From Naegleria gruberi (taxonomy: Eukaryota): a stretch of 64,000 nt of DNA. Below the pieces are notes generated by a model. The model saw nothing but the letters and a program-made list of their open reading frames with translations. It made no database searches and was not told where the DNA came from. The stretch lies in the NCBI GenBank assembly GCA_000004985.1, contig GG738881.1; one strand, 5' to 3'. Positions 13,439 to 64,000 of the stretch are shown here, piece by piece (position 1 is the stretch's first letter; the number at the start of each line of letters is the position of its first letter). Position numbers and translations under genes: made by a program.

Positions 13439-14905
13439 ATGGAAAAAGAACACAACACGGAAGAAACAAGCAATAAAAATTCATCTTGTTTGTCGTCATC
13501 ATTGGAAAGAGTGAAAGCATTCACAGAGCAACATCATCTCATTCCAAAAGAACCCTCACAGAATGATGATTCGGAATCACAACAATCGATAGTAGCATCA
13601 GAATCAAAAAATTTGAAATTTAAAATTGATGATGATGAATTCACTACAAAAAGTCATCGTATCATGTGCATTGATACCTTTCCCAAAATTCCATATTCTG
13701 ATGAAAATAAGAGAAATAGAAATGCACTTCATTGGGGACAACGTAAATTACTTTTATCAGAAATTGAATTTCTTACCGAATATTCACATGATGGAGATGT
13801 CGTGATTTATGCTGGAGCTGCTCCAGGTAGTCATTTAGTTTATTTAGCAGAGGTTTTATTTCCCAATCTCAAATTTATGCTTGTGGATCCAAATAAGTTT
13901 AATAAGGATTTGTATCATGTTAGAAATGTAACAATTATGGAAAGTTATTTCACAGACGAAATTGCAATGGAAATTAAAAAGATTAGGAATATTGAAAGTG
14001 GAAATAATTTACTATTTATTAGTGATATTAGAACTGCTGATCCACTAGTTATGGATCCAGAACAAAATGAAAAATGTATTACGGAAGATTTAACATTACA
14101 AAAAGGATGGTTGGAAATTTTACTCCCTCGATTCAGTATGTTAAAATTCAGACTCCCATTTACAGAAGGTAAAATTAAATACTTTAGAGGTGATATTTAT
14201 TTACCAGTTTGGGGTAGAAAATGGACAACTGAATGCAGACTTGTCATTAAGGAGGAGGATATCAAAGATTCCAATCAAATTGAATATGATAATCTTTCTT
14301 ACTCTGATCAATTATTCTATTTTAATAATATTACAAGATTTGAAAATATTTATCCACATGACATTTGCTCAGATGGGGTGGACAATTGGTAAGTGATCTT
14401 GTTGTTGTATAATTTTTTACTGAACTTGCAACTACGGTAAAGCTATGACTGTAGATCAGAGATTTTAATTTTACAAAACTTTATCAAGAAATTTCCAGAA
14501 AGAAAGAAAGACATCACCTGTAGTGAAGATTATGAAACCATTAATGAGAATGAAATAATTTCACAATGGATGTCTGACATTTCTCATCAAATCTCCACTA
14601 AAAAGAGAACGTTGATTCACATGCCAGACACATCCATATTTAACTTTGGGCCTACAATTCACCTTCACCCTCAACAACAAAATTGCAAAGAGTGGCTTGA
14701 TATGAGAAATATGGTTTTGCAGAGGACAAAACAGTTTTCCCAAAAGGTTCATTCAAAATCATATCATGCATCTAGTTCACAATCTTTTACACCAACAGAG
14801 ATGGAATCAACTACAGTTTCTGAAAGTACACAATTGGATGATGATAATTATGAACAAACAAAGAAGAGGAGACGTAGAAAGAAGAAAAAATCACATGTAC
14901 AATAA
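13439..14905 (+). CDS. Poxvirus VP39-like mRNA cap-specific (nucleoside-2'-O-)-methyltransferase homologue; probable join(13439..14388,14524..14905)
   Basis: HWGQRKLLLSEIEFLTEY…VVIYAGAAPGSHLVYLAEVLFPNLKFMLVDPN…LLFISDIRTADP…SMLKFRLPFTEG…TECRLV is colinear with vaccinia VP39 (YQGQLKLLLGELFFLSKL…TVVYIGSAPGTHIRYL…ILISDVRS…SLKWRCPFP…AEMRLL). It includes the K-D-K-E catalytic tetrad positions. A second exon after a 135-nt GTAAGT..TAG intron is in frame and ends in a basic tail. That exon is less certain. Confidence 0.6.
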
Positions 14906-20046: not shown

Positions 20047-21734
20047 ATGGTCTTTCAACTATTTGCAACTACTGCAGATAATTTCAATGCAACCAACAAC
20101 CAAACAAGCGCAATATGTGATGCCTCTTTTTTCAATTCAACATGGTCAAGAGAATTTCCTGGACGAGTTGACTATTCACTATGTCCAGATACTTGGGTTG
20201 GTAAGTGATTTCTACAATGATTTATGAACCGATGGTGCATGCGTAAATGGACAATGTTTAGCATTTGGTATGTTTTAATAGTGCTGACATATTTGAATTT
20301 ACATTAATAGCTCTGTGTTTGACATTTCTTCTCATTTACTTGTCAACAATCTTCTCAAGTGGTTTGGGAGTAATTTGGAAGAGAAATAGTGGTCACATTC
20401 AAGCAAGAAGTCCAATCTACTTGTTTTTCACTCTATTTTCTGCCTTTATATTCATCTTTGGAATGACCATGAGATTTATTGTGGGGAGAAAGATATTTCC
20501 ATGTGGATTGGTTACAATTTTCTTCTTTACATTTCCTCAAGCTGTGACATTGCCAACGATTTTTAGATTGATGAGAACTTTTCTCATGCACAAGATTAAT
20601 TTACAAAAAACCAAATTATTTGATGTTGATGTAAATAAGGGACAAGTCAGAGTTGATCAATCTCAATCAGCTCTATCTGAAACTATGAGTAAAACAGAGT
20701 TAAAGTTGGTTGACTCAGATATTAGCAGTGAAATGTCATTGACAAATGTGGAATTGAATGAAGGAAATGAAGATGGAGACGTTTCAAACTCTAAAATCGA
20801 ATTTAAAAACTTGTCAGATGTAAAGAAGGAAATGAGAAAATTGAATATTTACAACTTTTTAATTAGTTACAAATTCATCACTGTTGTGTACATTCTTGCA
20901 TTTGTATTTGGAATTTTACTTTGGGTACTGATTGGAGTGGTGGAAGAGGTTGTTTATCAAAAAGATCCAACTAAGGGGAGAATATTCCTATTAGAAGGAG
21001 GTATTCTATTGTTTGAGCATGGCTGTGGATTGTCAACCAATACTACTATCATTATTGGAGTTGAATCAATTGCCTATATTATTTTAGAGCTGGTCTTTTT
21101 CATCTTGTGTCTGATGGCTGATAGAGATTCATGGGGAATTAAGAAGGAGAGTCTTGCTCTAATATTCTTTCAAATTGTTGCTGCAGTTCTCTTCATTGTA
21201 TGTGGATCCATTAATGTGATTAAGAATCTTGTGGATTACTATGTACCTTATGGATTTCTCATTTGGGGATACATGCTTTTAGAGGTGATTGTTTGTGTTT
21301 CATTACCTGTTCTATACTCTATAGGAAAAGAGAAGAAACATCAAGAATCGGGTGATACTGGGTTTGAAAGATTATTGAAAAACAAAAAGACATTTGATAT
21401 TGTTCTTGATTTTGCTAGAAGAAGCTACTGTACTGAAAGTGTTCTATGTTGGAGAGATATTGAACGATACAAAAAGAGTGGAAAGGGAAATAGAAAGAAG
21501 ATTGCTCTCCATATAGTCGAGGCCTATTTATCACTGGAAGCTCCTTTAGAATTGAACATGCCAAAAATTCAAGAAAGAAAACAAGAATTATCTGCGATTA
21601 TTGAGAATGGAAGTTTAGAGTTGGACCTTTTTAATGGAATTCAAGAACATTGCCTGCATGATATGATAGATTTAATGGATAGATTATCAAGTGCCAATAA
21701 GGAAATTTCTGAAATATTGAGGAATAGCAAATAG
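20047..21734 (+). CDS. Seven-transmembrane protein with a C-terminal RGS domain (7TM-RGS); exon 1 20047..about 20200, main exon about 20282..21734
   Basis: Exon 1 encodes an N-glycosylation-rich ectodomain (NFNATNNQTS…NSTW) ending at a GTAAGT donor. The main ORF has 7 predicted TM helices, then an RGS box (FDIVLDFARRSYCTESVLCWRDIERYKK…SLEAP…) at roughly 21370..21700. The exact splice junction could not be brought into frame by hand (candidate acceptors at 20261 and 20281). Confidence 0.55.
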
Positions 21735-21954
21735 TCATGGTAAAATCAAGTGCATTACTTATTATGACTTTTAATATTATGTTGCAAGAAGAGCTTCAAC
21801 ACCTTTCATTATGAACATTTGGAATGTAATAAACCACAGCTTACTAGCAAATTAAAAAGATTAGATTTACAATATTATTATATTGGAAAGTGAGATTAAT
21901 TGTTTTGGCGTCGTTCGTCGTTGTCTTTATCACTTATGATGAAATCCAATGTAA

Positions 21955-22026
21955 GGCGGCTTAGCACAGTGGTAGTGCATCAGTCTTGTAAACTGAGGGT
22001 CGAGGGTTCAATTCCCTCAGTCGCCT
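21955..22026 (+). tRNA. tRNA-Thr (anticodon UGU)
   Basis: 72-nt cloverleaf: acceptor GGCGGCT/AGTCGCC (one G-U), D-arm GCAC-AGTGGTA-GTGC, anticodon stem TCAGT/ACTGA with loop CTTGTAA, T-arm GAGGG-TTCAATT-CCCTC. Followed by TTTT. Confidence 0.8.
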
Positions 22027-22229
22027 TTTGTTGAATTGTTTTTTTCTATTTTCCATAAAAGAACGAATAATTGGAATAATCTTTAACAGTTAATGAAACA
22101 AACCTTGAGTGATATTTAAATAATTTTAAAATATTAGCTTATTGTAATTATTTTAATATTAAAATAAAGTAATTTTTAATAATTTAATATTTTTTTTATT
22201 ACAAGCAAGGTCTTGATGATGTGATGGAA

Positions 22230-23174
22230 TTACATACCAATGTATTCTTCTTCTTCATCGCCATCAACTTCCTTGTTTTGTTCTCTCAAATTTTCCAAGA
22301 GGACAGTCAAAGAATGGTCATCCTTTTCGTTAACAACTCTTGGAGGAGCTTTAACTGTAACTTCACCGTCATACTTCTTGATAATTTCGGTAATCTTATC
22401 AATAGAAGCTTGTAATGTATCCAAACCCTTTTGTTTATCACTTGTTGTTGTTGCCATAACATAGAGAGGAGGAGCAACAAGGGTAATCTTGATGTCGATT
22501 TCTTCTTCGGTACCAATCTTTTCACCTTCAGATAAAGCTTCTTTCACAGCTTCAATTCCTTCATATGAATAACAAGTTACTTGAATATCGGCTCTCAATT
22601 TAACTGGTTGAGGCTTCAAACGATTTTGTATGATTGAAAGTAATTGTTCTTTGGTATTATTATCAGGGAATTCAATATCTTGGAAAACTTGGTCTGGATT
22701 TGTTAAAGTCATCTTGAAAGCATCAAAAGCATGTCCAAACTTTCTATATAATGGCCATGAAATTAATTTGTTCAATTCTTCCAAGTCTTGGTCAGTTGTT
22801 TCAGCCAAGTGTCTCATGATAGAACTAACAGCCTTGCTCTTGTTATATTTCTCTTCACATTTTGGAATATCTTCAGCAGCAACTTTACTCTTACTCAAGT
22901 CAATATATCCCTTTTCAGGATCAACACGCAAAACAACACAAACTTCATTTCTTCCTAAACGGATTAATTGAGAAATAGAACGAATTCTTTTTCTACTCAA
23001 TTCACTGCTCAAGATAAGACCTTCAATGTTGTTATATTCCAATAAAGAAACATAGGCACCGATATCGGTGATATGCTTGACTTTGACCATCACAAGGTCG
23101 TCGACTTCTGGATGTTGTTGTTCGTAATATCTGCAGCTTTGTTTCTTGGCTTCGCTCATTTTTTTAATTTTCAA
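22230..23174 (-). CDS. EIF2S1: Translation initiation factor eIF2 alpha subunit
   Basis: …SCRYYEQQHPEVDDLVMVKVKHITDIGAYVSLLEYNNIEGLILSSELSRKRIRSI… nearly identical in pattern to human eIF2-alpha, including the Ser51 phosphorylation-site context (LSELSRRRIRS). True start may be the MSEAKK Met at about 23159. Confidence 0.9.
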   Translation of the reverse strand: MKIKKMSEAKKQSCRYYEQQHPEVDDLVMVKVKHITDIGAYVSLLEYNNIEGLILSSELSRKRIRSISQLIRLGRNEVCVVLRVDPEKGYIDLSKSKVAAEDIPKCEEKYNKSKAVSSIMRHLAETTDQDLEELNKLISWPLYRKFGHAFDAFKMTLTNPDQVFQDIEFPDNNTKEQLLSIIQNRLKPQPVKLRADIQVTCYSYEGIEAVKEALSEGEKIGTEEEIDIKITLVAPPLYVMATTTSDKQKGLDTLQASIDKITEIIKKYDGEVTVKAPPRVVNEKDDHSLTVLLENLREQNKEVDGDEEEEYIGM

Positions 23175-23614: not shown

Positions 23615-26366
23615 ATGAAACGATTGGTTTTTAGAGCAGTAAAGGGAGGAAGAGATTCAAGTCTCTTGAAGCCTTGTATCAAGAAGGAACATCAACAATC
23701 AATTATCATGATGAATGGGTCGAATAGTAAAAGAACATTTTTTGATTTTTCGGAGGATGATTTGAAAAAGATGAACAAAGCAACCAACAAACCAGAAGTG
23801 AAGGGTGATGAATTGAAGAAACCAGACGAACATCCAACTTCTTTAAATTCATCTCATTTAGCTCACTCGGAAGGAAGCGAATCAAAGATGGTTGTTCCTA
23901 AAAAGAGATCAATGGCCGTCAACCCTCATGAACCTCTCTATGGTGAATGCCTCAATTTTAAAGCTCAAAATAATTTAATTGATTTTAGTGGAGAAAGACG
24001 AGAGGATGTTAACAAAGTTATGAATATTCTTTCAAATGTTGAAAGTCACAATAATATTATTTTAGGTTAGTTTAATTTTGGATCAACATATATTTTTACA
24101 CATTCAAATAGTTGGTGAAAATGGTGTTGGAAGAAGATCAATTATTGAATCATTGGCCTATAAGATTACTAAAAATCCAGAAAATGTTCCAGAACGTTTG
24201 AGGAACACAAAAATAATTGAGCTCTCTGTTGATAACTTGTATGGATGCAATGTTACAAATAATATTTGCACAACCTTCTTCAATGCATTGAAATCACTCA
24301 AGGTTTATGATGCCTTTAATTATGATTTGCCTCCAAATCCAAAATTAATGTCGATTGAGGAAAAGAAAGCGCATCTATACGGAAATAATCCGCCTCCAAC
24401 AGCTCATGATGAGGATGTCGAAAGATTGTTCAACGAAATGGTTGAATCTGTACAATTATATAGAGAAAATAGAGAAAAAACTAATCAACCTAAGATTTTA
24501 TTTATTCATCAATTTTATAATATGGTAGATGATTATTCATACTCTTTCTATGATAGTGTATCATCAGTTTTGCAACCTTTATTGGAAAAGAAGAGGCTTA
24601 AATTAGTAACATGTATGACACCATCTGAGTATGCCAAATTCACAAAGAATCCACTTGCTTCTCATTTTGAAGTTATCAAAGTTGGTGAGCCAAACTTTGC
24701 CACTACATTGGATATTGTAACAAAGAAGAAGGAATATTTGGAAGCATCTCATGGAGTTTTTATTGATAATGATATCGTTGAAGAGGCTCTCTTACTCTCT
24801 AATAGATATATCCCACTCAAGGCAAATCCAATGAAATGTATTTCAGTTCTAGATGAGTTGGCATCAATTGTTGAAAAGAGAGGTTGTTCAATTCCTATTA
24901 ATGTATTGGAGTTAGAGGATAAGATTAAGAAGGTGTCAATTGATATTGACAAAAAGAGTGATGATGATATTGATACTTCTTCATTAATGAAAAAATTGGA
25001 AAAGCTTAAGGAATCATACGCAACAAAATATTCTGCTTGGAAGGCTGAGTACCAAGCTCTTCAGTCTTACAGAGAAAATAGAGTTAGATTAATAGGGTTG
25101 AAGAAGGAACTTGGTGATTGTATTGCATCTATTACCAGTCCTGACTGCGAGTCTGCCAAGAGGGCATCAAAAATAATTGAAGATGATATTCCAGAAGTGA
25201 AGGCAAGTTTGAAAATCTTTGAAAAACAGTCTGCCAAAAACAAATATGTCAACAATAGAGCTACTTTGGATGACTTGTCTGTAGTGATTTCTAGAATGTC
25301 TGGAATTCCTCAAAAGGATTTGTATTTCACAACTCAAAAGAATCATTCTCTTAATAATATGGAGTCTATCTTGGAAGAACAGGTAATTGGACAAAAACAA
25401 GCAATTTCTTCCATTTCAAAAACAATACGAGTTGCCAAGCTAGGTCTCAGAGATGCTAACAAACCTCAAGCTTCACTCCTATTTTGTGGATTTTCAGGGG
25501 TTGGTAAAACTGAGCTTGCTAAACAAATAGCTAAAGTTGTTTATGGAAATGAAAATTCTGTATCTGTAATTGACATGACAAAGTATAATACTGAGTTCTC
25601 TGTATCCGGATTGATAGGCACATCGGCTGGCTATGTAGGTTACGATGATGGTGGCGAGCTAACCAACACAATCAAGAAGAATCCATTCCAAGTAATTATT
25701 TTTGATGAAATTGAAAAGGCACACAGTAGAGTTTGGAATATTTTATTACCAGTTTTTGAGGAAGGTGTTTGTCAGAATAATTATGGTGAAAGTGTTTCTC
25801 TGAAAGATACAATTATCATTCTTACATCTAATGTGGGTACAAAACGATTGTTCCAACACAAGGAAGAGGACAAGGATTTGACACAACAAGAAATCTTCCA
25901 TGAAGAAATCAAGGAAACTTTTGCTCCTGAATTCCTCAATAGATTAGATGATATCGTCATTTTCAATGAGCTTTCCATGCATGATTTGGATAAGATTTTG
26001 TCAATTCAATTGAGAAAGTTAGAAGAAAGACTTTCAAAGAAGAGAGAAATCAAGATTGAACTCTCTACTGAAGCTAGACAATTCTTAATTTTTAACTCAT
26101 TTGATATTCAGTTGGGTGCTCGTCCAATTAAGAGAAATATTCAAAACTACTTATCGGCACCAATTTCAGACCTCTTCTATCAAGGAAAATTGGACAAGCA
26201 TTGTACTTTGAAGGTAGATGTTGATGAGAAGAAATTGAAAGTGGAAGTGATAGTAGATGAGAAGAAGGAAAGTCAAGAAAAGAGGAAACGAAACAATGAT
26301 TATGATGACTTATTAGAACTCGATCACAAACTTAAGAATGCTATCAAATCATCAAATGTAGAATAA
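23615..26366 (+). CDS. ClpB/Hsp104/Hsp78-type AAA+ disaggregase homologue with degenerate NBD1; join(23615..24065,24112..26366)
   Basis: 46-nt intron (GTTAGT..AG) joins …NNIILG to VGENGVGRRS…. NBD1 Walker A is GENGVGRRS (canonical GEPGVGKT). NBD1 Walker B is ILFIHQFY (canonical ILFIDELH). A coiled-coil middle domain is present. NBD2 is intact: GFSGVGKTELAK, VIIFDEIEKAH, sensor and C-terminal small domain. The N-terminus is basic, possibly an organellar presequence, and there is no ClpN domain. Confidence 0.7.
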
Positions 26367-26388: not shown

Positions 26389-26850
26389 TTAATAACCACC
26401 TCTCAATCTCAATACCAAATGGACAGTTGAATCCTTTTGAAGATTGTAATCTGAGATAGTTCTACCATCTTCCAATTGTTTACCAGCATAAATCAAACGT
26501 TGTTGATCCGATGGAATTCCTTCCTTATCAAAAATCTTTTGTTTCATATTCTCAATAGTGTCATTCGATTCCGTTTCAATAGTAATGGTCTTTCCTGTCA
26601 ATGTTTTCACAAAAAGTTGCATTCCTCCTCTCAATCTCAACACCAAATGAAGAGTGGAGTCTTTTTGAATGTTATAATCATTGAAAGTTCTGCCATCTTC
26701 CAATTGTTTACCTGCGTAGATGAGCCTTTGTTGTTCTGGTGGAACTCCTTCCTTATCTTGAACCTTTCTTTTAACATTTTCAATTGAATCGTTTGATTCA
26801 ACTTCCAATGTGATAGTTTTACCAGTGAGTGTCTTGACAAATAATTGCAT
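26389..26850 (-). CDS. Di-ubiquitin-like protein (two divergent ubiquitin-fold repeats, each ending LRLRGG, plus terminal Tyr)
   Basis: Repeat 1 [76 protein letters not shown]. Repeat 2 [77 protein letters not shown]. About 80% identity to canonical ubiquitin. K48 and K63 are retained. Confidence 0.8.
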
Positions 26851-27262: not shown

Positions 27263-27343
27263 TGCAGAAGGTGGGATTTGAACCCACGAAGCTTGCGCAG
27301 TAGAACTTGAGTCTACCCCCTTTGACCACTCGGGAACCCCTGC
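27263..27343 (-). tRNA. tRNA-Leu (anticodon CAA), class II with long variable arm
   Basis: Minus-strand sequence GCAGGGG-TT-CCC-GAGTGGTCAAA-GGG-G-GTAGA-CTCAAGT-TCTAC-TGCGCAAGCTTC-GTGGG-TTCAAAT-CCCAC-CTTCTGC-A. Acceptor stem has two G-U pairs. Anticodon loop is CTCAAGT. Confidence 0.75.
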
Positions 27344-31096: not shown

Positions 31097-31168
31097 CAAT
31101 CTTGAGATGCGTCGACCGGGAATTGAACCCGGGTCACGGCGATGGCAACGCCGTATTCTACCACTAAA
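31097..31168 (-). tRNA. tRNA-Gly (anticodon GCC)
   Basis: Minus strand GCGTCGA-TG-GTTT-AGTGGTA-GAAT-A-CGGCG-TTGCCAT-CGCCG-TGAC-CCGGG-TTCAATT-CCCGG-TCGACGC-A. Close to the eukaryotic tRNA-Gly-GCC consensus. Confidence 0.85.
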
Positions 31169-31284
31169 CCATCGACGCTTCTTGTTCAAATGACTTGTTA
31201 CCTATTTGTAAAATTAAATATGAATGCTTATGTTAAAGCAAACGATTTTAGGAATTGTACGCGTCCTTTTGAAAGTTAAAAAAA

Positions 31285-43417: not shown

Positions 43418-44539
43418 ATGGTCAACAATACAAGAATGATTCCTCAGATTGCCAATGTGCCAATAGAGGTGATTCGAATTATTTGTTCTTTCATGAGCAA
43501 TTTGGAGAACATGTTTGTGAGTGGAAATGTTTCATTGACATGGAGAAGAGAAATTGCCTTTCCAATTTTACTAGATAATTTAAAGAGAATTCATTCCGAT
43601 CCTATTGATGATGAGATCACTGATTACAATTATTTCAAAACGGTGAAAATTGGAAGAAATTTTATTAGAATGGAATTGAGAAGATTTCTTTATGAATTTT
43701 CATTGAAATTATATGATTTTCAAAATTTAAATCAGAATTCTAAACCTCCTCTTGCTTCTATCGATTGTAATGAGTACTTGTTGGAAGAATTTGAACAAAT
43801 TCAATTTTATTTTTCACATTTTTCAATTCCAAAGTTAAATTTGATCGAAAAGAAGACTGAAAAGACTGGACTCTTTAAAATGATTTCGAGTTTATTCTCA
43901 AAACAACCAAAAAAACAGGAAAAGACGAATGACGAACCAATCATTGTTGATATTAACAAGAATAGGGTTGTGGAGAAAGAACCAGTGACTGAAATTGTTT
44001 GTAAAATAGCTCTCGATGGCTATCGTGCAACTGGAAGGACATCGTTTCTGAATGCTTCGTTAAGAGATGACGCTATTGTGAATAAGGACTATTATCCTTC
44101 AATTGGAATTGATTTTGCTGCGAGAATCTTTTCATTTCCAGAAGTGTTGACCAACATATACAAAGTTCAAGTATGGGATTCCCCTTATTCCCAACTACAA
44201 CCTGCATATGTGAATAATACTACAATGATTATGGAAGTTTTTGATTTGACAAAAAGAGAAACATTAGTCCATTTAATTAATGAAAATATTCCACAAATCA
44301 AACGATTAAGGCAAACTCCCCTCGAACTTGTATTTATTGGAACAAAACAAGATGTCATTCAGGAGAATCCTCAAACCAGAAACATTCCACCCAAAGACAT
44401 TCAAACATGTTGTCTCAATAATTTTGGAGGAGCCCTCTGTGTTGAACTTTCTCTAACAGAACTCAAACAAGCTCAATCATTAATATGGTACAGTGTTCTT
44501 CTTCAAGATATTTGCTATCCAAAAAATCTCAAAGAATGA
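43418..44539 (+). CDS. F-box-like N-terminus fused to a degenerate Rab/Ras-like small GTPase domain (pseudo-GTPase)
   Basis: KIALDGYRATGRTSFL (G1 lacks GKS/T). YPSIGIDF (Rab switch I-like TIGIDF). VQVWDSPYSQ in place of DTAGQE (no catalytic Gln). FIGTKQD is an NKxD-like G4. N-terminus IPQIANVPIEVIRIICSFM is F-box-like. Confidence 0.55.
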   Translation: MVNNTRMIPQIANVPIEVIRIICSFMSNLENMFVSGNVSLTWRREIAFPILLDNLKRIHSDPIDDEITDYNYFKTVKIGRNFIRMELRRFLYEFSLKLYDFQNLNQNSKPPLASIDCNEYLLEEFEQIQFYFSHFSIPKLNLIEKKTEKTGLFKMISSLFSKQPKKQEKTNDEPIIVDINKNRVVEKEPVTEIVCKIALDGYRATGRTSFLNASLRDDAIVNKDYYPSIGIDFAARIFSFPEVLTNIYKVQVWDSPYSQLQPAYVNNTTMIMEVFDLTKRETLVHLINENIPQIKRLRQTPLELVFIGTKQDVIQENPQTRNIPPKDIQTCCLNNFGGALCVELSLTELKQAQSLIWYSVLLQDICYPKNLKE

Positions 44540-44802: not shown

Positions 44803-46178
44803 TTAAATGTTATTTGCAGAGATGTTATTCTCTGATGGAATGACCAATACTTCAGTGGAGAATGAAATTGCTGAGGGGGTTGTTGGAGACATGTCACCAC
44901 ATGAGCTGCTCGAAGGTAGAGAAAGGAAATTATTTTCACTTCCACTCATAGAATGATCCTTCAATGTTGTTGAGGATGATGAACCATTTTGAAGGGGAAC
45001 TTGTAAGTGAGAAACCTTATGGAGTTTCTTTTGAGAGAGAGTTTCCTTTCTCTTTTCAATTTCTTTCATTGCAATTTCCATATCTCTAAATAGTGGATAA
45101 AACAAGAAGAGAATCAAAATACCAAATATCAAGACTCCAGTACAATTGAGGAATTGCCAAATTACAGAGTAGTTGGCCAATTCTGAGGCTCCTGCAGCAA
45201 TGGCTATGGCAACAAGTTGTAGAGCCATACATAGCAACAAACCAATCAATAATCCGAAAGTAATTTTGAATGGAGATTGAACTCTCTTCTCAAACGAAAC
45301 CTTATCAAATGAAGTTCTTGAACTGGAATTTTGACTCTCTGTAGCACTCATTTTACTCTCTGATTTGTGATGTTCAGAAACTGCTTTAGTGACATTCTTG
45401 GATGTTTTCTGAATAGTTCTCACAACAATTATTCCAGAGGCAATTAACATACACCCAACGAATACTATAACACATCCTCCAACTACAAATGATACAACTT
45501 GAATGGCAGTTGCATATTCTTTTGGAATGAAATCAAATCTCTTAATACCAGACATGATACCAATTAGGAGAATGATCAAAATGGCCAACATGACAAATAA
45601 TGTGGCAATAATGGTCATTGAGGTTCGAATAATTTTGGAGGTTTCCTTAGTGATGGCTCTCATCAGTGTAGCTGTACTCCAACTAGTATTTGTGTGTTAA
45701 AATATTTTGGAAATTCGAATACTTACAACATGTTTTGAACGAAAACAATGATTGAAAACAGTGTCAAGAAATTACTTGTCATTGTAAAACTGTTCAGACC
45801 AAGAAATACTTGCATGGCAATAAATAATTTCCATTCAATTAATTGTCCTGCTTCAATCTTTTCTCTGATGACTAATTGTAAGGTTTCGTTTACAACTCTT
45901 ACAAGTAAACTAAATATTTGAACTGTTACATAAATACCAGTCATAATGAACAGTATCGTTTGGTTTCTCTTTAGTTTCAGTTTTCTTGTAACTCTAATGA
46001 TGAATCCAATAAGAACGAAAATGTAAACTGAAAAGAGAATGAGAAATATTATTGTATTCGAAAGTACTAAACCACTGGCCCAAATAGGTTTCATTTGATC
46101 CAAGGTAACATTCGTATAACCTTCACCATTTACAATTACTGATGATGAATCTAATAGTGCAAATAAACGTTCTGACAT
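44803..46178 (-). CDS. Seven-transmembrane receptor-like protein (GPCR candidate); join(45723..46178,44803..45663) with a short intron
   Basis: Exon 1 has an N-glyc ectodomain (NVTL) and 3 TM helices. Exon 2 has 4 more TM helices and a Ser-rich cytoplasmic tail. Donor GTAAGT at 45722, acceptor about 45670; junction ambiguous by 6 nt. Confidence 0.5.
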
Positions 46179-57253: not shown

Positions 57254-60200
57254 TTATTGGAGTGAATAGGTAATTAAATACTTTGGATAAGCTTGTGAAT
57301 TTTTGTAAACAATGAAAATATCACTTCCACCAGTATTTCCCTTCACACTGTCATATCTTACAGCAGAGTTTGGCTTGAGAGGAGGAATTCTAATATTACT
57401 ATTTGAACTACAACTGTGAAAATCACCTGTTAACACTTCAGCAAGGAAAAATTTTCTGTAATTAGTACCTGGAACGGGAAAAGCATAGCCATTAGAATAA
57501 CTTGCATTGACAGCAAAATAACATCCAATTCCCCACATTCCAGTATTTGAAAATCTCATGTCAAATCCTTCATGACCATCATAGATAATGCTTGGATCTG
57601 TACTTCTTGTTCCATGGAACAATAATTGAGGATCGGTTGAATATTGTCCATTTGAATCAATCTTAATCTTGTTGATTCTATCTTGTTCAGTTTTATAACT
57701 TTGATAAACCAATTGATTTTGAACTTTTTCAATATTTTGAATCACTGCATTTGGAATGGTCAATTTAATTCTATCATTGATCATTTTCCATTCATTACTT
57801 GATTGAGATAAATTGATGAGAATTACATTTGAAGTTTGAAGCTGCCAATCTTGAGGATAACTGAATTTACTCAACAATTCAGGTTTATCAGCAATGGTCA
57901 AGAGAGCATATTCCTTAAATTTGTCAACTGTATACTTGAATCCAGTAATTGTAAATGGTGATACGTTCATATCAATCTTTAACATTCCATTATCAAATTT
58001 TGCTTTCATTGATGCATGTTCTGATAGAATGTGATCAATTACAAACTTGTTACATGATTTTGTTAAGGACTCGGTAATGTAGCTTTCTTTGATATTATTT
58101 CTAAAATTAAGCTCGAATGATTGAACATCTGAAGCTTCTCCATAAAGTCTGAATGAATAAACAGATTCAGTTACGCTTGCATATTTAGTTTTGCTAACTG
58201 ATTTAACAATTTGAATGGGAACAGTATCAGTAATTAGTATTCTGTTATGAGCAGATCCACTCACAAATGTGTAATGATTGTCATCTTGATCATAAACATA
58301 CAAGATGGAATTCTTATTCAAATCTGATGCAACATCAATGTTACACTTCACAATTTTTTGAATTGGTATCCTCTTAACTCTTCTTACATATTGAGTTTGT
58401 GAGTTGACTTGAACGTGCTCTTCTTTAAGGTAATCGAATTTCACAAAATATTTGATATCTTCAGAGGTATACTTTTCATTAGTCATCAGTACATTACATT
58501 CAGTATTTCTTTCATTATAGCTCCTTTCAATTTCTTTCATTTGATTTTCTCTATAAGGATTCCATGTCTTGTTATCATCAGCCAACCATAGCCATAAAGC
58601 AGTCAAATGTTCAGTATCCATTGTTGGAACATAAATAATCTTTCTCTTAAATTTAGAAGAATTTTCAATTTGTTCCATCTTGTCAAAGTCAATTTGGTAC
58701 TTTTTACCTTGTTCCGCATTCAAAATGAAAGTTGACTTGGGATCTTTTTCATATTCTTGACATAATTTACGATTATCATTCACTGTGAATGGCAAATACA
58801 TCTTTTTGATATCATCAAAATATTTGAAACATCCAACATATTCATCTTGTTCAATTTCAATAAATGAGGAATCATTCTTTGTATCTAATGTATAGACTAG
58901 ATCTGTTTGTAATAAGTTGATAGATTTTGAGAATGATTCAGTAACTGTATTAATATCACCAATCAGTATAATTTCCCTCAAACATGATAATTGTGGTGCA
59001 TATTTGTAAATTGTTCTGACAATGATATCAGTTGATTGATCAAGTGGGAATCCAAATATTCCAGATGAAAGTGCAGGAATAATGATTGAACAATATCCAT
59101 CCTTTTCTGCTTGAGTCAAAATATTCACAACTGTTTGTTCAAGTAAACTACATGAGTTAAGATGATTATTTGAATCATACATTGGAGGAATGGCATTATA
59201 AATCTTTGAGAGGTAACTGAGATTTCCAGCAGTTGTTGGAACTACATCACCTGGTTTGAGTTTAAGAGAGGTGGTAATATTTTTACATTCTTGATCAAAT
59301 TGTTTTCCACATTTCTCTAAACATTGAGCAGCAATTCCTCCACCATGTGCCAATTGGTCATTTGCACTGTTAACAAGTACTTGAGCTTTCCATTTCTTAT
59401 CAAACATGTCACCTTGACAAATGTAAATAAATGAATTCTCAATTTTGTGAACTTCCTTGATTCCACTGTCAAGTTTCTTTTCCAAAACAACCTTACCCTT
59501 TGTCTCAATATTCTTTTCTGAAAAGAATTTGAATTCATCATGTTGCATTCTAATAAAGTCAACCAATACTTTCTTTCTCACTTCCATCATTACTCTGTGA
59601 TAGGAATTGTCAATGAATTTGTACATATCTTGAGATGGTGCAACTAATGTAATTGATAGTCCTTGTTCTAAAATCTTTACATTATTTTGTTGAACTGACT
59701 TGAGAAGTGGTAATGCAAGATTCTTTTCAATAATATTATTAAAAGTCAATTTGATTCTCTTTTCTTTTGATTGCAAAAGTTCAGATTCAATTCTTGATTT
59801 CACTTCCTTCACATCTTCATCTCTTAATCCCTTGATATAAAAAGTCTTCTTATTTGAATCAAAATCAACATTAATTGATGAAATATCCTTCTTGAACTTG
59901 TCAATCTTGGTTTTAACAGTTACCTTTTTCAGTAAATGTTCATTGACTTGTTTTGCTTGAACAATATCAGAGCTTCCTTTCAACAATTCACTCAATTCAT
60001 TTCTAATCTTCATTTCATTTTCTTGATTTTCAACAATAGCAAATAAAATAATAATGTTCTTTGACTTTTCAGGTGCCAAAACTGTTGAGGCAGTTTGAAT
60101 TTCTGTTAATTGCTCAAAATATTTCTCACCTTCCTTTTTAACATCTTCTTTCAAAGAGGCATGGATAAATTGTAATTCCAATTTAACACTTTTAATTTTC

Positions 60201-61604
60201 TTAAGCTCTGCTTGCAATAATTGTCTTGCCTTTTTAGGTACATTTAATACGATCATCTTACTGGCATCCTTTTCGTCTCTCTTGCATTTGAATTCAATTT
60301 GGCCACTCTTTAATAAGTGAGAGCTGAACTTTCTCAAGAACTTATATTGTGTAGTTTCTATAGTTACTGGATTCTTTGTATCACCCTTCTTAATCTTGTT
60401 AAAAACTTTGTATTCACTTTCACTCTTCAAAGTACATTCAATTTGAAAGTTTTCATTTTGTTTGGTATATTTAAATTGAATATTTTTGTTAAACAATTCC
60501 TTTTTTGTAGCATCAAAATCATCCTTTGGAATTGAAAACTTAATTTTGAACAAATCAATAATTAATTGATTGTTATATATATCACTCAATGAAGTTAAGT
60601 GCCAAGTAGTGAAATTTTTCTTGGATTCTTCAATATATAAATATACACCTGGTGGCAATTTCTTTTGAACTTGGTCTTTCTTTTCATTGCTATTTTCATA
60701 ATAAAATTCGACGAATCTTGCAGGTTGCAATAACTTGATAACAAGATTTTGTAAATATTGTTGAACATTTTGAATATTTGGTTGTGTTGGTTGAATTTTG
60801 AAAGTAATTGTCTTATCTTTGATCTCAAATGAATTGTTTGTACCACCAGACATTTGTGATAACTCTCTTCTCAAGTCATCACTGAAGAATTTATCCAAGG
60901 CAACTGCTTTGATTCCAGTTGGAATTTCAATAGAATAAACTCCAGCAACAGTTTTCTTTGGCTTATTGTCAATGGTAATTTCAAGTGGTTCATTATAATA
61001 CTTGATGGAAGAACATTTTTCTTTGATTATCTTGGCAATACCATATGTTGAAATATTGACCCAAATAAGTTGTTTCTTCTTATTGGTAGTGAGTACAGGT
61101 TTAACTTTTTCTTCATTAAGAATGTTTCCAACTAATTCTGGAACAGTCAACTTGATATTGAAGAGTACATCATTAAAATCAACACCAAGAGGGAATACAA
61201 TACGAACAGCTTCAGTTACAACGGCACTAGATGTTGAATCAAACGAAGTGGAAGAACTAGGTGATACTTCTCTATCACTAAAGTTATCAATTGGTGTTTG
61301 AGGAGTTGAACTAATTCTTTGATTCATTCTCAAAGGATCAATTTGAATGTTAGTCATTTGTTGATTCATCATTTGACTATTATTCATAGTGTTATAATAG
61401 GTATTGTTGTTTGGATTACCATAATTATTATTGGTATTCATAGGTTGGTTATAATTCATAGAAATTTGATTAGTATTGCCATAATTATGCATACTACTAC
61501 CAGTACTATTATAATTCAAAAGCAATTGTTGATTACCACCACCCATTGTATTACTAATAGGATGAACCATGGTTTGATCATAAGGATTGTTCATACCATA
61601 ACCA

Positions 61605-61635
<31 letters not shown>

Positions 61636-61954
61636 AATTAGCATTAAAATCATATTGATTCATATTGGTATGATTATTAAGTAACAATCCATTTGAACCA
61701 TATTGATTGTTACTTAATGAATTGATAGGTTGTTGTTGTTGTTGGCCATTCATTGCTGAAGAATTAGTGTACATGTTGCTTTGAATGGGATCATTAAACA
61801 TTTGGTTATTATTACCACCATAACCTTGATAGAATTGACCACCATTATTGTACATATTTTGTCGGTGATTTTGCTCTTGGTTTGGTTGTTGGTTATAACC
61901 TTGTGTTTGATTTTGTGGAGTTAGCATATTTCTGGTTTGTTGAATAAAACCCAT
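57254..61954 (-). CDS. Macro-domain / WWE / PARP catalytic domain protein (PARP14-like mono-ADP-ribosyltransferase architecture) with a roughly 215-aa Q/N-rich prion-like N-terminus
   Basis: 1566-aa single ORF. Macro domain (…KAQVLVNSANDQLAHGGGIAAQCLEKCGKQF…). WWE-like segment (…HLTALWLWLADDNKTWNPYRENQMKEIERSY…). C-terminal PARP fold: LLFHGTRSTDPSIIYDGHEGFDMRF…GMWGIGCYFAVNASYS…SDIFIVYKNSQAYPKYLITY, with an H-Y-I triad (I in place of PARP1 Glu988). N-terminus is N/Q/G/Y-rich with an (ATT)n-encoded poly-Asn. Confidence 0.8.
61608..61632 (-). repeat. (ATT)n microsatellite encoding poly-Asn inside the PARP N-terminal prion-like domain
   Basis: attattattattattattattatta on the plus strand = (AAT)n on the coding strand = NNNNNNNNN. 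Confidence 0.8.
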
Positions 61955-62308: not shown

Positions 62309-64000
62309 TTAGAAAAGGCCGTGATCTCTCAAAGTCTTTTGTAAAATAATATCCTTAATATCATCCATAACCATCAAAGAAGCATCTTCACGTATCAAAT
62401 CAACAAAATGAGTGTATAAACACCGTTGTCTAATTGTTGGATCAACATTAATAAATTTCTCAGCAACAAAACTAGTGTAGAGGAATACATGATCACCAGA
62501 ATAATCAAAGTCTGGAAAACACATTCGAAGAGGAACAGATTTGATTCTTTTACGGAATATATCTAATTTTGTAAATACTAAAATGATTGGTGTATCTTTG
62601 TAAAAGCTTAAGATTTCTTTGAACATTGAAAGTGAATTATGCATATGGGAAACCAATATTTGGTTTTGAGTTGGAGGAACAAAATTTAGAGGGTCAACAA
62701 TTGGTGGGCTTTGAGGATTTTTAGTTGGACTAAAGTCAAGTAAGCTTAAAGAATATTCACAATATTCACTTAAAGAAACCATGAAAACAATTGCAGAAAC
62801 TGAATCTCTATCAAAATGAGAAGTCATCCACTTTCTTCTTTCATTTCTTTGTCCAGTAATATCTACAAACTCACATGGGAACGGAAAATTTAACTGACAT
62901 GTTTCAATAGATGTAGAAGGAAAATATGTAGTTAAAATATCTCTTGATGTTGGTGTATATCTTAGTGATGCTATTCTGTCAATATTATCAAAAAAGTATC
63001 TTGCATTGTAAAGTATTGAGTTATTTAAAGATAACTTGTCAAATGTGTGTTTTACGTATTTATCCTTCCATAAACTCTTAAATAATTCAACTGCTTCTGG
63101 ATTTAAGAAATTTTGAGTAATCTTATTAGATTCCTCTGATTGAGTATCATATTGTGATGGTTGTTTGTGGAATTGTTTTGAATCATTTTTAAAATTACTT
63201 AATCTTTGGTGAAGAACGTTTAAACTTTCATCCAATGATGATGAAACTCTTAAAGGAGATTTGTTCTTTGGAGTTATAGGTATGGATTGGCTTGTATTAT
63301 TACTAGCAGCACTATCACTATTGCATTCATTTTGTGTATTTAAAGTTTGATTAAACCTCCAAAGTTGAAGTAATTGAGCTCTTCTCCTTAAATTTTCTCT
63401 AAATTCTGTTTCCGTGACATTCTTAATTAAATATTTTGCATTATTCAATACAAATTTCAATATTTTACATTTAAATAATTCTACAACTTGTTCATTCGAA
63501 TAATCACCCTCTAATAATTTGATTTTTCTAATGAGGGTACTTTTTCCTGATTTACCAGATCCAAGAGTTAAAATTCTAACTTTTTTAGGTTTTTTAGAAT
63601 CCAACTCGATTTGCCTTTGGATTCTACGATCATTTTCATTGTTATCAACATCAGATGAAACTCTTTGAATGTTTGATGCTGATCGATCTAAACTATTGAA
63701 AGATGCTCTTCTACGAGGTGTTGTGGTTTTCTTTGAAGGTAAAGCATCATCACTTGGTGAATTACTTGTAGGAGATGGTGAACCAAAAACCATTTGATCA
63801 TCATTTTCTATTGCTAATTCAATCATGGCATGAGAAGATGATGATCCATTAACGTCTTCATCCTGAATTAGACTTGATGTAAAATCATTGATTGAACTCA
63901 AGTCAGCAGTTGATTGTCTAAGAATATTAGAATGTTCTCTATGATGATGCTCCCTATTCTGAGTTGATGATGATGATGGTATTTCATTATTCTCCAAAGA
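62309..64000 (-). CDS. Heterotrimeric G-protein alpha subunit-like protein, divergent; partial (N-terminus lies beyond the window end)
   Basis: G1 KVRILTLGSGKSGKST. Switch I DILTTYFPSTSIET (Tyr where the catalytic Arg sits). G3 DITGQRNERRKW. G4 FTKLD. C-terminal …YTHFVDLIRED…DHGLF lacks the TCAT (G5) box. More than 145 aa of S/N-rich sequence precede the G1 box, and there is an S/N-rich insertion in the helical domain. The ORF-track 'M' at 63997 is a TTG. Confidence 0.7.
   Translation of the reverse strand, partial: SLENNEIPSSSSTQNREHHHREHSNILRQSTADLSSINDFTSSLIQDEDVNGSSSSHAMIELAIENDDQMVFGSPSPTSNSPSDDALPSKKTTTPRRRASFNSLDRSASNIQRVSSDVDNNENDRRIQRQIELDSKKPKKVRILTLGSGKSGKSTLIRKIKLLEGDYSNEQVVELFKCKILKFVLNNAKYLIKNVTETEFRENLRRRAQLLQLWRFNQTLNTQNECNSDSAASNNTSQSIPITPKNKSPLRVSSSLDESLNVLHQRLSNFKNDSKQFHKQPSQYDTQSEESNKITQNFLNPEAVELFKSLWKDKYVKHTFDKLSLNNSILYNARYFFDNIDRIASLRYTPTSRDILTTYFPSTSIETCQLNFPFPCEFVDITGQRNERRKWMTSHFDRDSVSAIVFMVSLSEYCEYSLSLLDFSPTKNPQSPPIVDPLNFVPPTQNQILVSHMHNSLSMFKEILSFYKDTPIILVFTKLDIFRKRIKSVPLRMCFPDFDYSGDHVFLYTSFVAEKFINVDPTIRQRCLYTHFVDLIREDASLMVMDDIKDIILQKTLRDHGLF

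What the first reader, a model, noticed from the sequence alone, without database searches (positions are those of the whole stretch)
20047..21734. 7TM-RGS fusion protein (receptor-like seven-helix domain with C-terminal RGS box)
Exon 1 encodes a glycosylated ectodomain. Seven hydrophobic helices follow, then an RGS domain (FDIVLDFARRSYCTESVLCWRDIERYKK…). This is the same architecture as plant AtRGS1, a self-activating G-alpha GAP regulated by endocytosis. It is rarely discussed outside plants. In the same window there is another 7TM receptor-like gene (44803..46178) and a divergent G-alpha whose catalytic Arg is missing (62309..end). A GAP-bearing receptor alongside a GTPase-impaired G-alpha is a thought-provoking combination, but these are not clustered or co-regulated in any demonstrable way.
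Basis: partly seen in the sequence, partly recalled or inferred. Interest (0 to 1): 0.55.

Follow-up and report, generated by a model that had tools for sequence, protein, structure and literature searches.

The report
Naegleria seven-helix receptor fused to RGS
This is a real two-exon gene of the amoeboflagellate Naegleria gruberi that encodes a seven-helix membrane protein ending in a G-protein "off-switch" (RGS) domain, and it is one ordinary member of a large protein family already described and biochemically tested in Naegleria.

Summary
The window is Naegleria gruberi (Heterolobosea), not an amoebozoan. Joining exon 1 (20047-20200) to exon 2 (20311-21734) across a 110-nt phase-1 GTAAGT...TAG intron gives a 525-aa protein. 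It is 100% identical to the deposited N. gruberi 'predicted protein'.

The protein has:
- a 50-aa N-terminal ectodomain with three N-glycosylation sequons and two conserved cysteines;
- seven helices whose predicted fold is that of a GPCR;
- a disordered loop of about 95 aa between helices 3 and 4;
- a C-terminal RGS domain above Pfam's cut-off, with an RGS fold and four of six RGS4-type G-alpha contact residues conserved.

The predicted topology (N-terminus out, C-terminus in) puts the RGS domain in the cytoplasm.

The architecture is not novel. N. fowleri has 28 published 7TM RGS proteins, and three of four tested RGS domains accelerate GTP hydrolysis on Naegleria G-alpha subunits.

One modestly new point is that the seven-helix module looks class-C-like (7tm_3). 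The sequence family spans Heterolobosea and Anaeramoeba, always with the RGS domain at the C-terminus.

The divergent G-alpha in the window does lack the catalytic Arg. It also carries the natural Gly-to-Ser 'RGS-insensitive' change in switch I, so it is an unlikely substrate. Interest is low.

The parts
20047..20200 (+). Exon 1. Residues 1-51 plus the first base of codon 52. It encodes the N-terminal ectodomain, with sequons N14, N18 and N30 and conserved cysteines C24 and C46 in the family motif C..S....SRE...G...Y..CPDT.
   Evidence: Exon 1 alone scores 42.2 bits (E 1.7e-14) against a family HMM built without this gene.
20201..20310 (+). Intron of 110 nt, phase 1, GTAAGT...TAATAG.
   Evidence: The spliced product is identical to the deposited 525-aa protein.
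20311..21734 (+). Exon 2. Residues 52-525 and the TAG stop. It encodes all seven helices, the long loop and the RGS domain.
20197..21320 (+). Seven-helix (GPCR-fold) region, residues 51-388; this span includes the intron. The helices are roughly 51-74, 86-108, 116-137, 236-262, 297-319, 332-354 and 366-388. C116 (nearly invariant) and C290 (invariant) sit where the GPCR helix 3 to extracellular loop 2 disulfide lies. The cytoplasmic end of helix 7 carries P384-x-x-Y387.
20568..20861 (+). Long cytoplasmic loop between helices 3 and 4 (residues 138-235). It is variable in length among paralogues, Ser/Thr- and acid-rich, and predicted disordered (pLDDT below 50 for residues 158-217).
21363..21728 (+). 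RGS domain (residues 403-524). The residues at the RGS4 contact positions are E427 (E87), N467 (N128), D505 (D163) and R509 (R167), all conserved. C425 replaces S85 and S428 replaces N88. The final RGS helix runs to residue 524 of 525, so there is no tail after the domain.

Best explanation
The locus is a two-exon Naegleria gruberi gene for a 525-aa plasma-membrane 7TM-RGS protein.

Anatomy. A short, probably N-glycosylated and disulfide-bonded ectodomain leads into a GPCR-fold seven-helix bundle. The bundle is most similar to class C transmembrane domains. A linker of about 14 residues joins it to a cytoplasmic RGS domain.

Most likely mechanism. The RGS domain is held at the inner face of the membrane. 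There it binds the transition state of one or more of the many Naegleria G-alpha subunits and accelerates their GTP hydrolysis. This keeps fast-exchanging ('self-activating') G-alpha subunits switched off. An extracellular or membrane cue sensed by the seven-helix module, or removal or modification of the protein, would then relieve that brake.

Shown here: the gene model, the domain architecture, the topology prediction, the RGS fold, conservation of the contact residues, and family-wide conservation of the fusion.

Inferred from published work on N. fowleri paralogues and AtRGS1: GAP activity and its regulation. The ligand and the partner G-alpha are unknown.
For: Gene model:
- The spliced product is identical to the deposited protein.
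- It is the best of five junctions against an independent family HMM.

RGS domain:
- Pfam PF00615 above the gathering score.
- Foldseek hits to RGS1, RGS17, RGS8 and RGS4 with target TM-score about 0.7 and probability 1.0.
- Profile search against the PDB finds only RGS domains.
- Residues equivalent to RGS4 E87, N128, D163 and R167 are invariant or nearly invariant in the family.

Seven-helix fold and topology:
- AlphaFold2 gives seven helices with pLDDT of about 70-85 across most of the helical stretches.
- Positive-inside count is 16 to 7.

Fusion is selected, not accidental:
- An exhaustive HMM search with a transmembrane-only profile finds 182 clusters.
- In 101 of 101 representatives that carry both domains, the RGS domain is C-terminal, with a median linker of 10 aa.
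- 62-66 of 75 members of at least 450 aa hit Pfam RGS.

Function by analogy:
- The RGS domains of N. fowleri 7TM RGS2, RGS3 and RGS4 are selective GAPs for Nf G-alpha 2, 3, 5 and 7.
- They bind only the GDP-AlF4 form of G-alpha.
- The switch-I Gly-to-Ser mutation blocks their action (PMC9283941).
Against: - No experiment has been done on this protein or its direct orthologue.
- The four characterised N. fowleri proteins have large EGF, lectin or GPS ectodomains. This protein has only 50 aa outside and no Pfam ectodomain, so it belongs to a different subgroup.
- Two of the six RGS4 contact positions differ (S85 to Cys, N88 to Ser), so specificity or potency cannot be predicted.
- The structural model is only moderately confident (mean pLDDT 66, built from 13 sequences).
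- The protein itself has no Pfam seven-helix hit, even at E<=1.
- There is no transcript evidence for the splice junction.
- There is no C-terminal tail like the one that I recall mediating AtRGS1 endocytosis.
Confidence: 0.8

Rival explanations
1. Dual-function receptor. The class-C-like seven-helix bundle is itself a working GPCR (a GEF for slow-exchanging G-alpha subunits), and the RGS domain fused in cis is a built-in timer that sharpens or terminates the receptor's own signal. On this reading it is not a pure 'receptor GAP' of the AtRGS1 type.
For: - The fold is a GPCR fold with top matches to G-protein-coupling class C receptors.
- The loop between helices 5 and 6 and the cytoplasmic helix ends are highly conserved: D324, W326, I328, K329 and E331 are invariant among close paralogues.
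- Helix 7 carries a P-x-x-Y motif.
- Naegleria has both slow- and fast-exchanging G-alpha subunits, and both types engage 7TM RGS proteins (PMC9283941).
Against: - GEF activity has never been shown for any 7TM-RGS protein.
- There is no recognisable ligand-binding domain.
- The similarity to class C is remote (about 10% identity).
Confidence: 0.12
2. Non-catalytic RGS domain. The domain binds G-alpha (or another partner) as an anchor, scaffold or effector interface without accelerating GTP hydrolysis, as in GRK or axin-type RGS-homology domains.
For: - Positions S85 and N88 of RGS4 are replaced by Cys and Ser.
- The Pfam score is modest (33.7 bits).
- De Mendoza 2014 notes that some RGS domains have lost GAP activity.
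Against: - The residues most closely tied to G-alpha binding and GAP function (E87, N128, D163 and R167 equivalents) are conserved across the family.
- To my knowledge RGS2, a working GAP, also has Cys at the S85 position.
- The closest structural matches are catalytic R4/RZ-type RGS domains, not the GRK or RhoGEF type.
Confidence: 0.06
3. Functional pair with the Arg-less G-alpha at 62309-63997. The receptor-GAP would supply in trans the catalytic help that the impaired G-alpha lacks.
For: - Both genes lie in the same 64-kb window.
- The G-alpha is a true family member (Pfam G-alpha, E 1.1e-69).
- It lacks the catalytic Arg: R178 is Tyr.
Against: - The genes are about 40 kb apart on opposite strands. 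Genes of unrelated function lie between them, for example a Ras-family GTPase and a macro/WWE/PARP protein.
- RGS domains do not supply an arginine finger (established knowledge of RGS4-Gi-alpha-1).
- The G-alpha has Ser at the Gly183 position. This is the 'RGS-insensitivity' substitution that abolished GAP action on Nf G-alpha 2 and 3.
- Its NKxD motif reads TKLD.
- N. gruberi has more than 30 G-alpha subunits and 229 RGS proteins, so co-occurrence in one window is expected by chance.
Confidence: 0.02

Closest known systems
Naegleria fowleri 7TM RGS protein family (28 members; Nf 7TM RGS1-4 studied; Bosch, Jeck and Siderovski 2022, PMC9283941)
   Same: - Same genus, and the same domain order: seven helices followed by a C-terminal RGS domain.
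- N. fowleri proteins FDP41_012977 and FDP41_001330 are direct sequence relatives of the seven-helix module (E 1.3e-96 and 7.5e-93).
- The G-alpha contact residues are canonical.
   Different: - The four characterised members have large ectodomains with EGF-like repeats, lectin domains and GPS motifs. This protein has a 50-aa ectodomain with no Pfam domain.
- Its RGS domain has not been tested.
Arabidopsis AtRGS1 (plant 7TM-RGS receptor GAP)
   Same: - Domain order and predicted topology are the same.
- The presumed role is the same: a membrane-tethered GAP for self-activating G-alpha.
- The Glu corresponding to RGS4 E87 is conserved. To my knowledge this is the position of the AtRGS1 E320K loss-of-function mutation.
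   Different: - No sequence link between the two seven-helix modules was seen. All 15 family members whose source organism could be identified come from Heterolobosea or Anaeramoeba. A direct comparison was not possible.
- Here the seven-helix module looks class-C-like.
- There is no post-RGS tail; in AtRGS1, as I recall, that tail is phosphorylated to trigger endocytosis. Instead there is a disordered loop of about 95 aa between helices 3 and 4.
- Plants have one copy. N. gruberi has a large paralogous family.
Class C GPCR transmembrane domains (7tm_3: mGlu, GABA-B, GPR156, GPR158, TAS1R)
   Same: - 7tm_3 is the only GPCR Pfam family hit by any family member.
- The Pharyngomonas member P0155 passes the 7tm_3 gathering score (41.1 bits against 33.5). 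It aligns with this subfamily at 96% hhalign probability.
- GPR158 recruits RGS7-G-beta-5 in trans, a functional parallel to the fusion seen here.
   Different: - There is no Venus-flytrap or cysteine-rich domain.
- Identity is about 10%.
- The protein itself has no 7tm_3 hit, even at E<=1.
- The RGS domain is covalently fused rather than recruited.
Trichomonas vaginalis and other protist or fungal 7TM-RGS proteins (cited from Bradford 2013 and de Mendoza 2014)
   Same: - Same architecture.
- A family member exists in Anaeramoeba flamelloides, which I understand to be a metamonad, the supergroup that also includes Trichomonas.
   Different: I did not test whether the Trichomonas proteins belong to the same seven-helix sequence family. 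The primary paper was not available.

Membership tests
RGS domain (Pfam PF00615) | Profile match above the curated gathering score | tested here: met
   E 5.3e-8, 33.7 bits against a cut-off of 23.9, covering profile positions 2-100 of 117. 62-66 of 75 family members also match.
RGS domain (Pfam PF00615) | All-helical RGS fold | tested here: met
   Foldseek against the PDB finds RGS1, RGS17, RGS8, RGS4 and RGS16 with target TM-score 0.65-0.73 and probability 1.0. The model's pLDDT is about 70-85 in this region.
RGS domain (Pfam PF00615) | G-alpha switch-region contact residues (RGS4 S85, E87, N88, N128, D163, R167) | tested here: inconclusive
   E427, N467, D505 and R509 are conserved; S85 is Cys and N88 is Ser. 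That is four of six. It is compatible with GAP function but does not prove it.
RGS domain (Pfam PF00615) | GTPase-accelerating activity on a G-alpha | not testable with these tools
   This needs a biochemical assay. It has been shown for three N. fowleri paralogues only.
7TM-RGS architecture (AtRGS1 type / Naegleria 7TM RGS) | Seven transmembrane helices N-terminal to an RGS domain in one polypeptide | tested here: met
   The single-polypeptide gene model is supported. The N. lovaniensis relative P0002 encodes the whole protein in one exon.
7TM-RGS architecture (AtRGS1 type / Naegleria 7TM RGS) | Topology that places the RGS domain in the cytoplasm | tested here: met
   An odd number of helices, a K+R count of 16 inside to 7 outside, and four sequons on the predicted outside. 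This is a prediction only.
7TM-RGS architecture (AtRGS1 type / Naegleria 7TM RGS) | Sequence relatives among the Naegleria fowleri RGS-domain membrane proteins | tested here: met
   P0014 (FDP41_012977, 'RGS domain-containing protein', E 1.3e-96) and P0017 (FDP41_001330, E 7.5e-93).
AtRGS1 orthologue group (plants) | Sequence homology of the seven-helix module to AtRGS1 | not tested
   No AtRGS1 sequence was available and the AlphaFold database library was offline. Indirect evidence: the 15 hits of the exhaustive transmembrane-profile search that could be traced to a named organism are all Heterolobosea or Anaeramoeba.
AtRGS1 orthologue group (plants) | C-terminal tail after the RGS domain carrying the phosphorylation sites that drive endocytosis (from my knowledge of Urano 2012, Nat Cell Biol) | tested here: not met
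   The last RGS helix runs to residue 524 of 525, so there is no tail.
Class C GPCR (Pfam 7tm_3) | Profile match of the seven-helix region to PF00003 | tested here: not met
   This protein has no hit even at E<=1. Only 5 of 75 family members hit at E<=0.1. One of them (P0155) is above the gathering score.
Class C GPCR (Pfam 7tm_3) | Structural similarity of the transmembrane bundle that is higher than to other GPCR classes | tested here: met
   [not shown]
Class C GPCR (Pfam 7tm_3) | Extracellular Venus-flytrap and/or cysteine-rich domain | tested here: not met
   The ectodomain is 50 aa with no Pfam hit. Some class C receptors (GPR156, GPRC5) also lack these domains.

The most novel reading that the evidence does not exclude
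The heterolobosean/Anaeramoeba 7TM-RGS family, including this gene, is built on a divergent class-C-type (7tm_3) transmembrane domain and arose independently of plant AtRGS1. If so, 'receptor-GAP' fusions are polyphyletic. The class C plus RGS partnership seen in trans in animals (GPR158/GPR179 with RGS7) would then have an ancient counterpart fused in cis.
Probability: 0.35. Interest if true: 0.4.

Novelty: new member of a known kind. Interest (0 to 1): 0.2.

Why it matters
It matters little as a discovery. The gene is already in the N. gruberi annotation, though unnamed, and the protein class has been described and assayed in its sister species.

It has some use as a clean, small example: a 50-aa ectodomain and a single intron. 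That makes it a convenient construct for asking how a seven-helix module controls a fused GAP.

The class-C-like nature of the helix bundle and the family's spread to Anaeramoeba bear on whether 7TM-RGS proteins are ancestral to eukaryotes or arose more than once.

Tried and rejected
With the canonical GTAAGT donor at 20201 neither is in frame. They work only with weak donors (GTTGGT, GTTGAC or GTGATT) and score lower against the family HMM.
- Pfam on exon 1 alone, and on the seven-helix region of this protein: no family.
- Profile of the close paralogues' seven-helix region against PDB sequences: no hit, even at E<=10.
- phmmer of the 7tm_3-positive relative P0155 against the PDB: RGS hits only.
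- Foldseek against the AlphaFold database, to look for AtRGS1: library unavailable.
- Synteny with N. lovaniensis. The best hit, P0002, lies next to another RGS gene and not next to eIF2-alpha, so it is a paralogue and not a positional orthologue.
- Genomic loci of P0001, P0004 and P0005, to compare intron positions: not on record.
A transmembrane-only alignment of exact sequences was used instead.
- Anantharaman 2011 and Bradford 2013 could not be read.
- Clustering or co-regulation with the G-alpha or with the second multi-pass membrane gene: rejected on distance, strand and the intervening genes of unrelated function.

Full report
**1. Observation**

The region 20047-21734 on the plus strand contains an ATG-initiated short ORF that ends at a GTAAGT donor (20201), and a 489-codon open frame from 20265 to the TAG at 21732-21734.

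I enumerated every GT/AG pair that yields an uninterrupted reading frame and found five models. The only one that uses the canonical GTAAGT donor pairs it with the AG at 20309-20310. That gives a 110-nt, phase-1 intron and a 525-aa protein.

This product is 100% identical over its full length to the deposited 'predicted protein [Naegleria gruberi]'. That result also identifies the window as Naegleria gruberi, a heterolobosean, not an amoebozoan.

As an independent check I built a family HMM from seven relatives, excluding this gene, and scored the five junctions to a fixed genomic endpoint. The GTAAGT/20310 model scores best (233.7 bits; the next are 227.6 and 214.8). Exon 1 alone scores 42.2 bits (E 1.7e-14). 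Exon 1 therefore encodes the family's conserved N-terminal module (C..S....SRE...G...Y..CPDT) and belongs to this gene. In the N. lovaniensis relative P0002 the whole protein is encoded in a single exon. No transcript data were available.

**2. Anatomy**

- *Helices.* Hydropathy analysis gives seven hydrophobic segments. An AlphaFold2 model built on 13 family sequences has mean pLDDT 66 and pTM 0.53, with about 70-85 across most of the helical stretches. It gives seven long helices at 47-74, 86-109, 116-156, 238-269, 294-319, 323-351 and 367-397, followed by a helical domain at 402-524.
- *Long loop.* Between helices 3 and 4 lies a loop of about 95 residues that is Ser/Thr- and acid-rich, predicted disordered (pLDDT below 50 for residues 158-217), and variable in length among paralogues.
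- *Topology.* The N-out/C-in orientation is supported by the positive-inside rule (K+R within 15 residues of the membrane: 16 inside, 7 outside). It is also supported by the position of four N-X-S/T sequons (N14, N18, N30, N295) on predicted outside segments.
- *Cysteines and helix 7 motif.* Across 75 family members, C290 (second extracellular loop) is invariant and C116 (start of helix 3) nearly so. This is the position of the canonical GPCR disulfide. P384 in a P-x-x-Y motif at the cytoplasmic end of helix 7 is also nearly invariant. The structural meaning of both is inferred from established GPCR knowledge.

**3. The RGS domain**

- Pfam PF00615 matches at E 5.3e-8, 33.7 bits, above the 23.9-bit gathering score.
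- Foldseek of the model against the PDB returns RGS1, RGS17, RGS8, RGS4 and RGS16, with target TM-score about 0.65-0.73 and probability 1.0.
- A profile of ten family RGS domains finds only RGS proteins in the PDB.
- From the printed alignments to RGS17 and RGS10, and the known RGS4 numbering, the contact residues map as follows: E87 to E427, N128 to N467, D163 to D505 and R167 to R509. All four are invariant or nearly invariant in the family. S85 is replaced by Cys and N88 by Ser.
- To my knowledge RGS2, an active GAP, also has Cys at the S85 position.

The domain therefore looks competent to bind G-alpha. Catalysis cannot be shown computationally.

**4. The seven-helix module**

Three results at the sequence level point the same way:
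- Among 75 long family members, 7tm_3 is the only GPCR Pfam family hit (5 members at E<=0.1).
- One member, P0155 from Pharyngomonas kirbyi, passes the 7tm_3 gathering score (E 2.2e-10, 41.1 bits against 33.5) and also carries an RGS domain.
- The profile of this gene's close paralogues aligns to P0155 over 236 columns with 96% hhalign probability (E 3.6e-9).

**5. Family and distribution**

Word-indexed searches found 13, then 11, relatives. All are from Naegleria species or unnamed assemblies.

An exhaustive HMMER search of 1.84 billion representatives with a transmembrane-only profile found 182 clusters at E<=1e-3 and 70 at E<=1e-30. Members whose source organism could be identified come from N. 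gruberi, N. lovaniensis, N. fowleri, Willaertia magna, Acrasis kona and Pharyngomonas kirbyi (all Heterolobosea), and from Anaeramoeba flamelloides.

In 101 of 101 representatives that carry both modules, the RGS domain is C-terminal to the helices, with a median linker of 10 residues. The fusion is thus an old and stable architecture, and N. gruberi carries many paralogues.

**6. What is already known**

- De Mendoza et al. 2014 (PMC3971589) count 229 RGS proteins in N. gruberi. They report 7TM-RGS architectures in many bikonts and in chytrids, filastereans and ichthyosporeans.
- Bosch, Jeck and Siderovski 2022 (PMC9283941) describe 28 7TM RGS proteins in N. fowleri.
- The same paper shows that the RGS domains of Nf 7TM RGS2, 3 and 4 are selective GAPs for Nf G-alpha 2, 3, 5 and 7, and bind only the GDP-AlF4 form.
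- It also shows that the switch-I Gly-to-Ser 'RGS-insensitivity' mutation blocks their action, and that Nf G-alpha 5 and 7 are self-activating.

The architecture, and its likely mechanism in this genus, are therefore published. This gene differs from the four assayed proteins in having a minimal ectodomain, without EGF, lectin or GPS modules.

**7. Mechanism**

The best-supported model is a membrane-tethered GAP. The cytoplasmic RGS domain, held about 14 residues from helix 7, accelerates GTP hydrolysis on one or more Naegleria G-alpha subunits. A cue acting on the seven-helix module, or modification of the long disordered loop, would modulate that brake.

- *Shown here:* gene structure, domain architecture, fold, predicted topology, conserved contact residues, and conservation of the fusion.
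- *Inferred:* GAP activity (by homology to the assayed paralogues), regulation (by analogy to AtRGS1), and the identity of partner and ligand (unknown).

Unlike AtRGS1, the protein ends at the last RGS helix, so an AtRGS1-style C-terminal phospho-tail is absent. If phosphorylation controls it, the loop between helices 3 and 4 is the obvious candidate. That is speculation.

Rivals:
- a true GPCR/GEF with a built-in RGS timer (not excluded);
- a non-catalytic RGS scaffold (disfavoured by residue conservation);
- a functional pair with the G-alpha in the window (disfavoured, see section 8).

**8.

*The G-alpha.* It lies on the minus strand (62309-63997) and is a clear family member (Pfam G-alpha, E 1.1e-69). 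Aligned to Gi-alpha-1, its switch I reads DILTTYFPSTSIE against DVLRTRV(K/P)TTGIV. R178 is therefore Tyr, which confirms that the catalytic Arg is missing. T181 is Ser and G183 is Ser. Q204 is kept, and NKxD reads TKLD. The Ser at G183 is exactly the RGS-insensitivity change, so this G-alpha is a poor candidate substrate for any canonical RGS domain. It lies about 40 kb from the RGS gene. The genes between them that were examined are unrelated in function: a Ras-family GTPase, the seven-segment membrane gene, a weak GRAM-domain protein and a macro/WWE/PARP protein.

*The 'other 7TM gene'.* It lies at 44803-46178, also on the minus strand. It has seven hydrophobic segments once a short GTAAGT intron is removed, but no Pfam family and no RGS domain. 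Whether it is a receptor is open.

**9. Verdict**

The thing itself is an ordinary, already-annotated member of a published protein class. The small additions made here are the resolved splice junction, the class-C-like nature of the helix bundle, and the family's range across Heterolobosea plus Anaeramoeba.

- Novelty: new member of a known kind.
- Interest: 0.2.

Noticed in passing
window 62309-63997 (minus strand): A divergent G-alpha (Pfam E 1.1e-69). Against Gi-alpha-1 it has R178 as Tyr, T181 as Ser and G183 as Ser (the natural 'RGS-insensitive' switch I). Q204 is kept, NKxD reads TKLD, and the P-loop reads GSGKSGKS. It also has an insert of about 100 aa in the helical-domain region and a long low-complexity N-terminus. 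It is probably a GTPase-impaired, RGS-uncoupled G-alpha.
   Followed up: partly
window 44803-46178 (minus strand): A two-exon gene (GTAAGT donor at 45726) for a protein of about 435-443 aa. It has seven hydrophobic segments and a Ser-rich C-terminal tail. It has no Pfam family and no RGS domain. Whether it is a GPCR is unresolved.
   Followed up: partly
window 13439-14392 (plus strand): A 317-aa ORF that matches PF01358 PARP_regulatory, the poxvirus VP39-type poly(A) polymerase regulatory subunit / cap 2'-O-methyltransferase (E 5e-32). This family is unusual in a cellular eukaryote. It could be a virus-derived or cap-methyltransferase gene.
   Followed up: no
window 57254-61954 (minus strand): A 1566-aa protein with macro, WWE and PARP catalytic domains and a long Asn/Gln-rich N-terminus. 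This is a macro-PARP-type ADP-ribosylation protein.
   Followed up: no
window 21954-22027 (plus strand); also 27263-27343 and 31108-31178 (minus strand): tRNA-Thr(TGT) lies 220 bp downstream of the RGS gene's stop codon. tRNA-Leu(CAA) and tRNA-Gly(GCC) lie further on.
   Followed up: no
window 22230-23174 (minus strand), 24078-26366 (plus strand), 26389-26850 (minus strand): The immediate downstream neighbours are housekeeping genes: eIF2-alpha (S1 and EIF_2_alpha domains), a ClpB/Hsp104-type AAA+ protein and a di-ubiquitin. There is no clustering of G-protein signalling genes around the 7TM-RGS gene.
   Followed up: partly
window 43418-44539 (plus strand): A 373-aa protein with a Ras/Roc-type small-GTPase domain in its C-terminal half (Pfam Ras, E 1.2e-10) and an unassigned N-terminal half.
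   Followed up: no
L001 6001-10855 (N. lovaniensis PYSW02000004.1): Two RGS-domain genes lie in tandem: P0002 (796 aa, intronless) and a 714-aa neighbour. This points to local tandem duplication as one route by which the family expanded.
   Followed up: no
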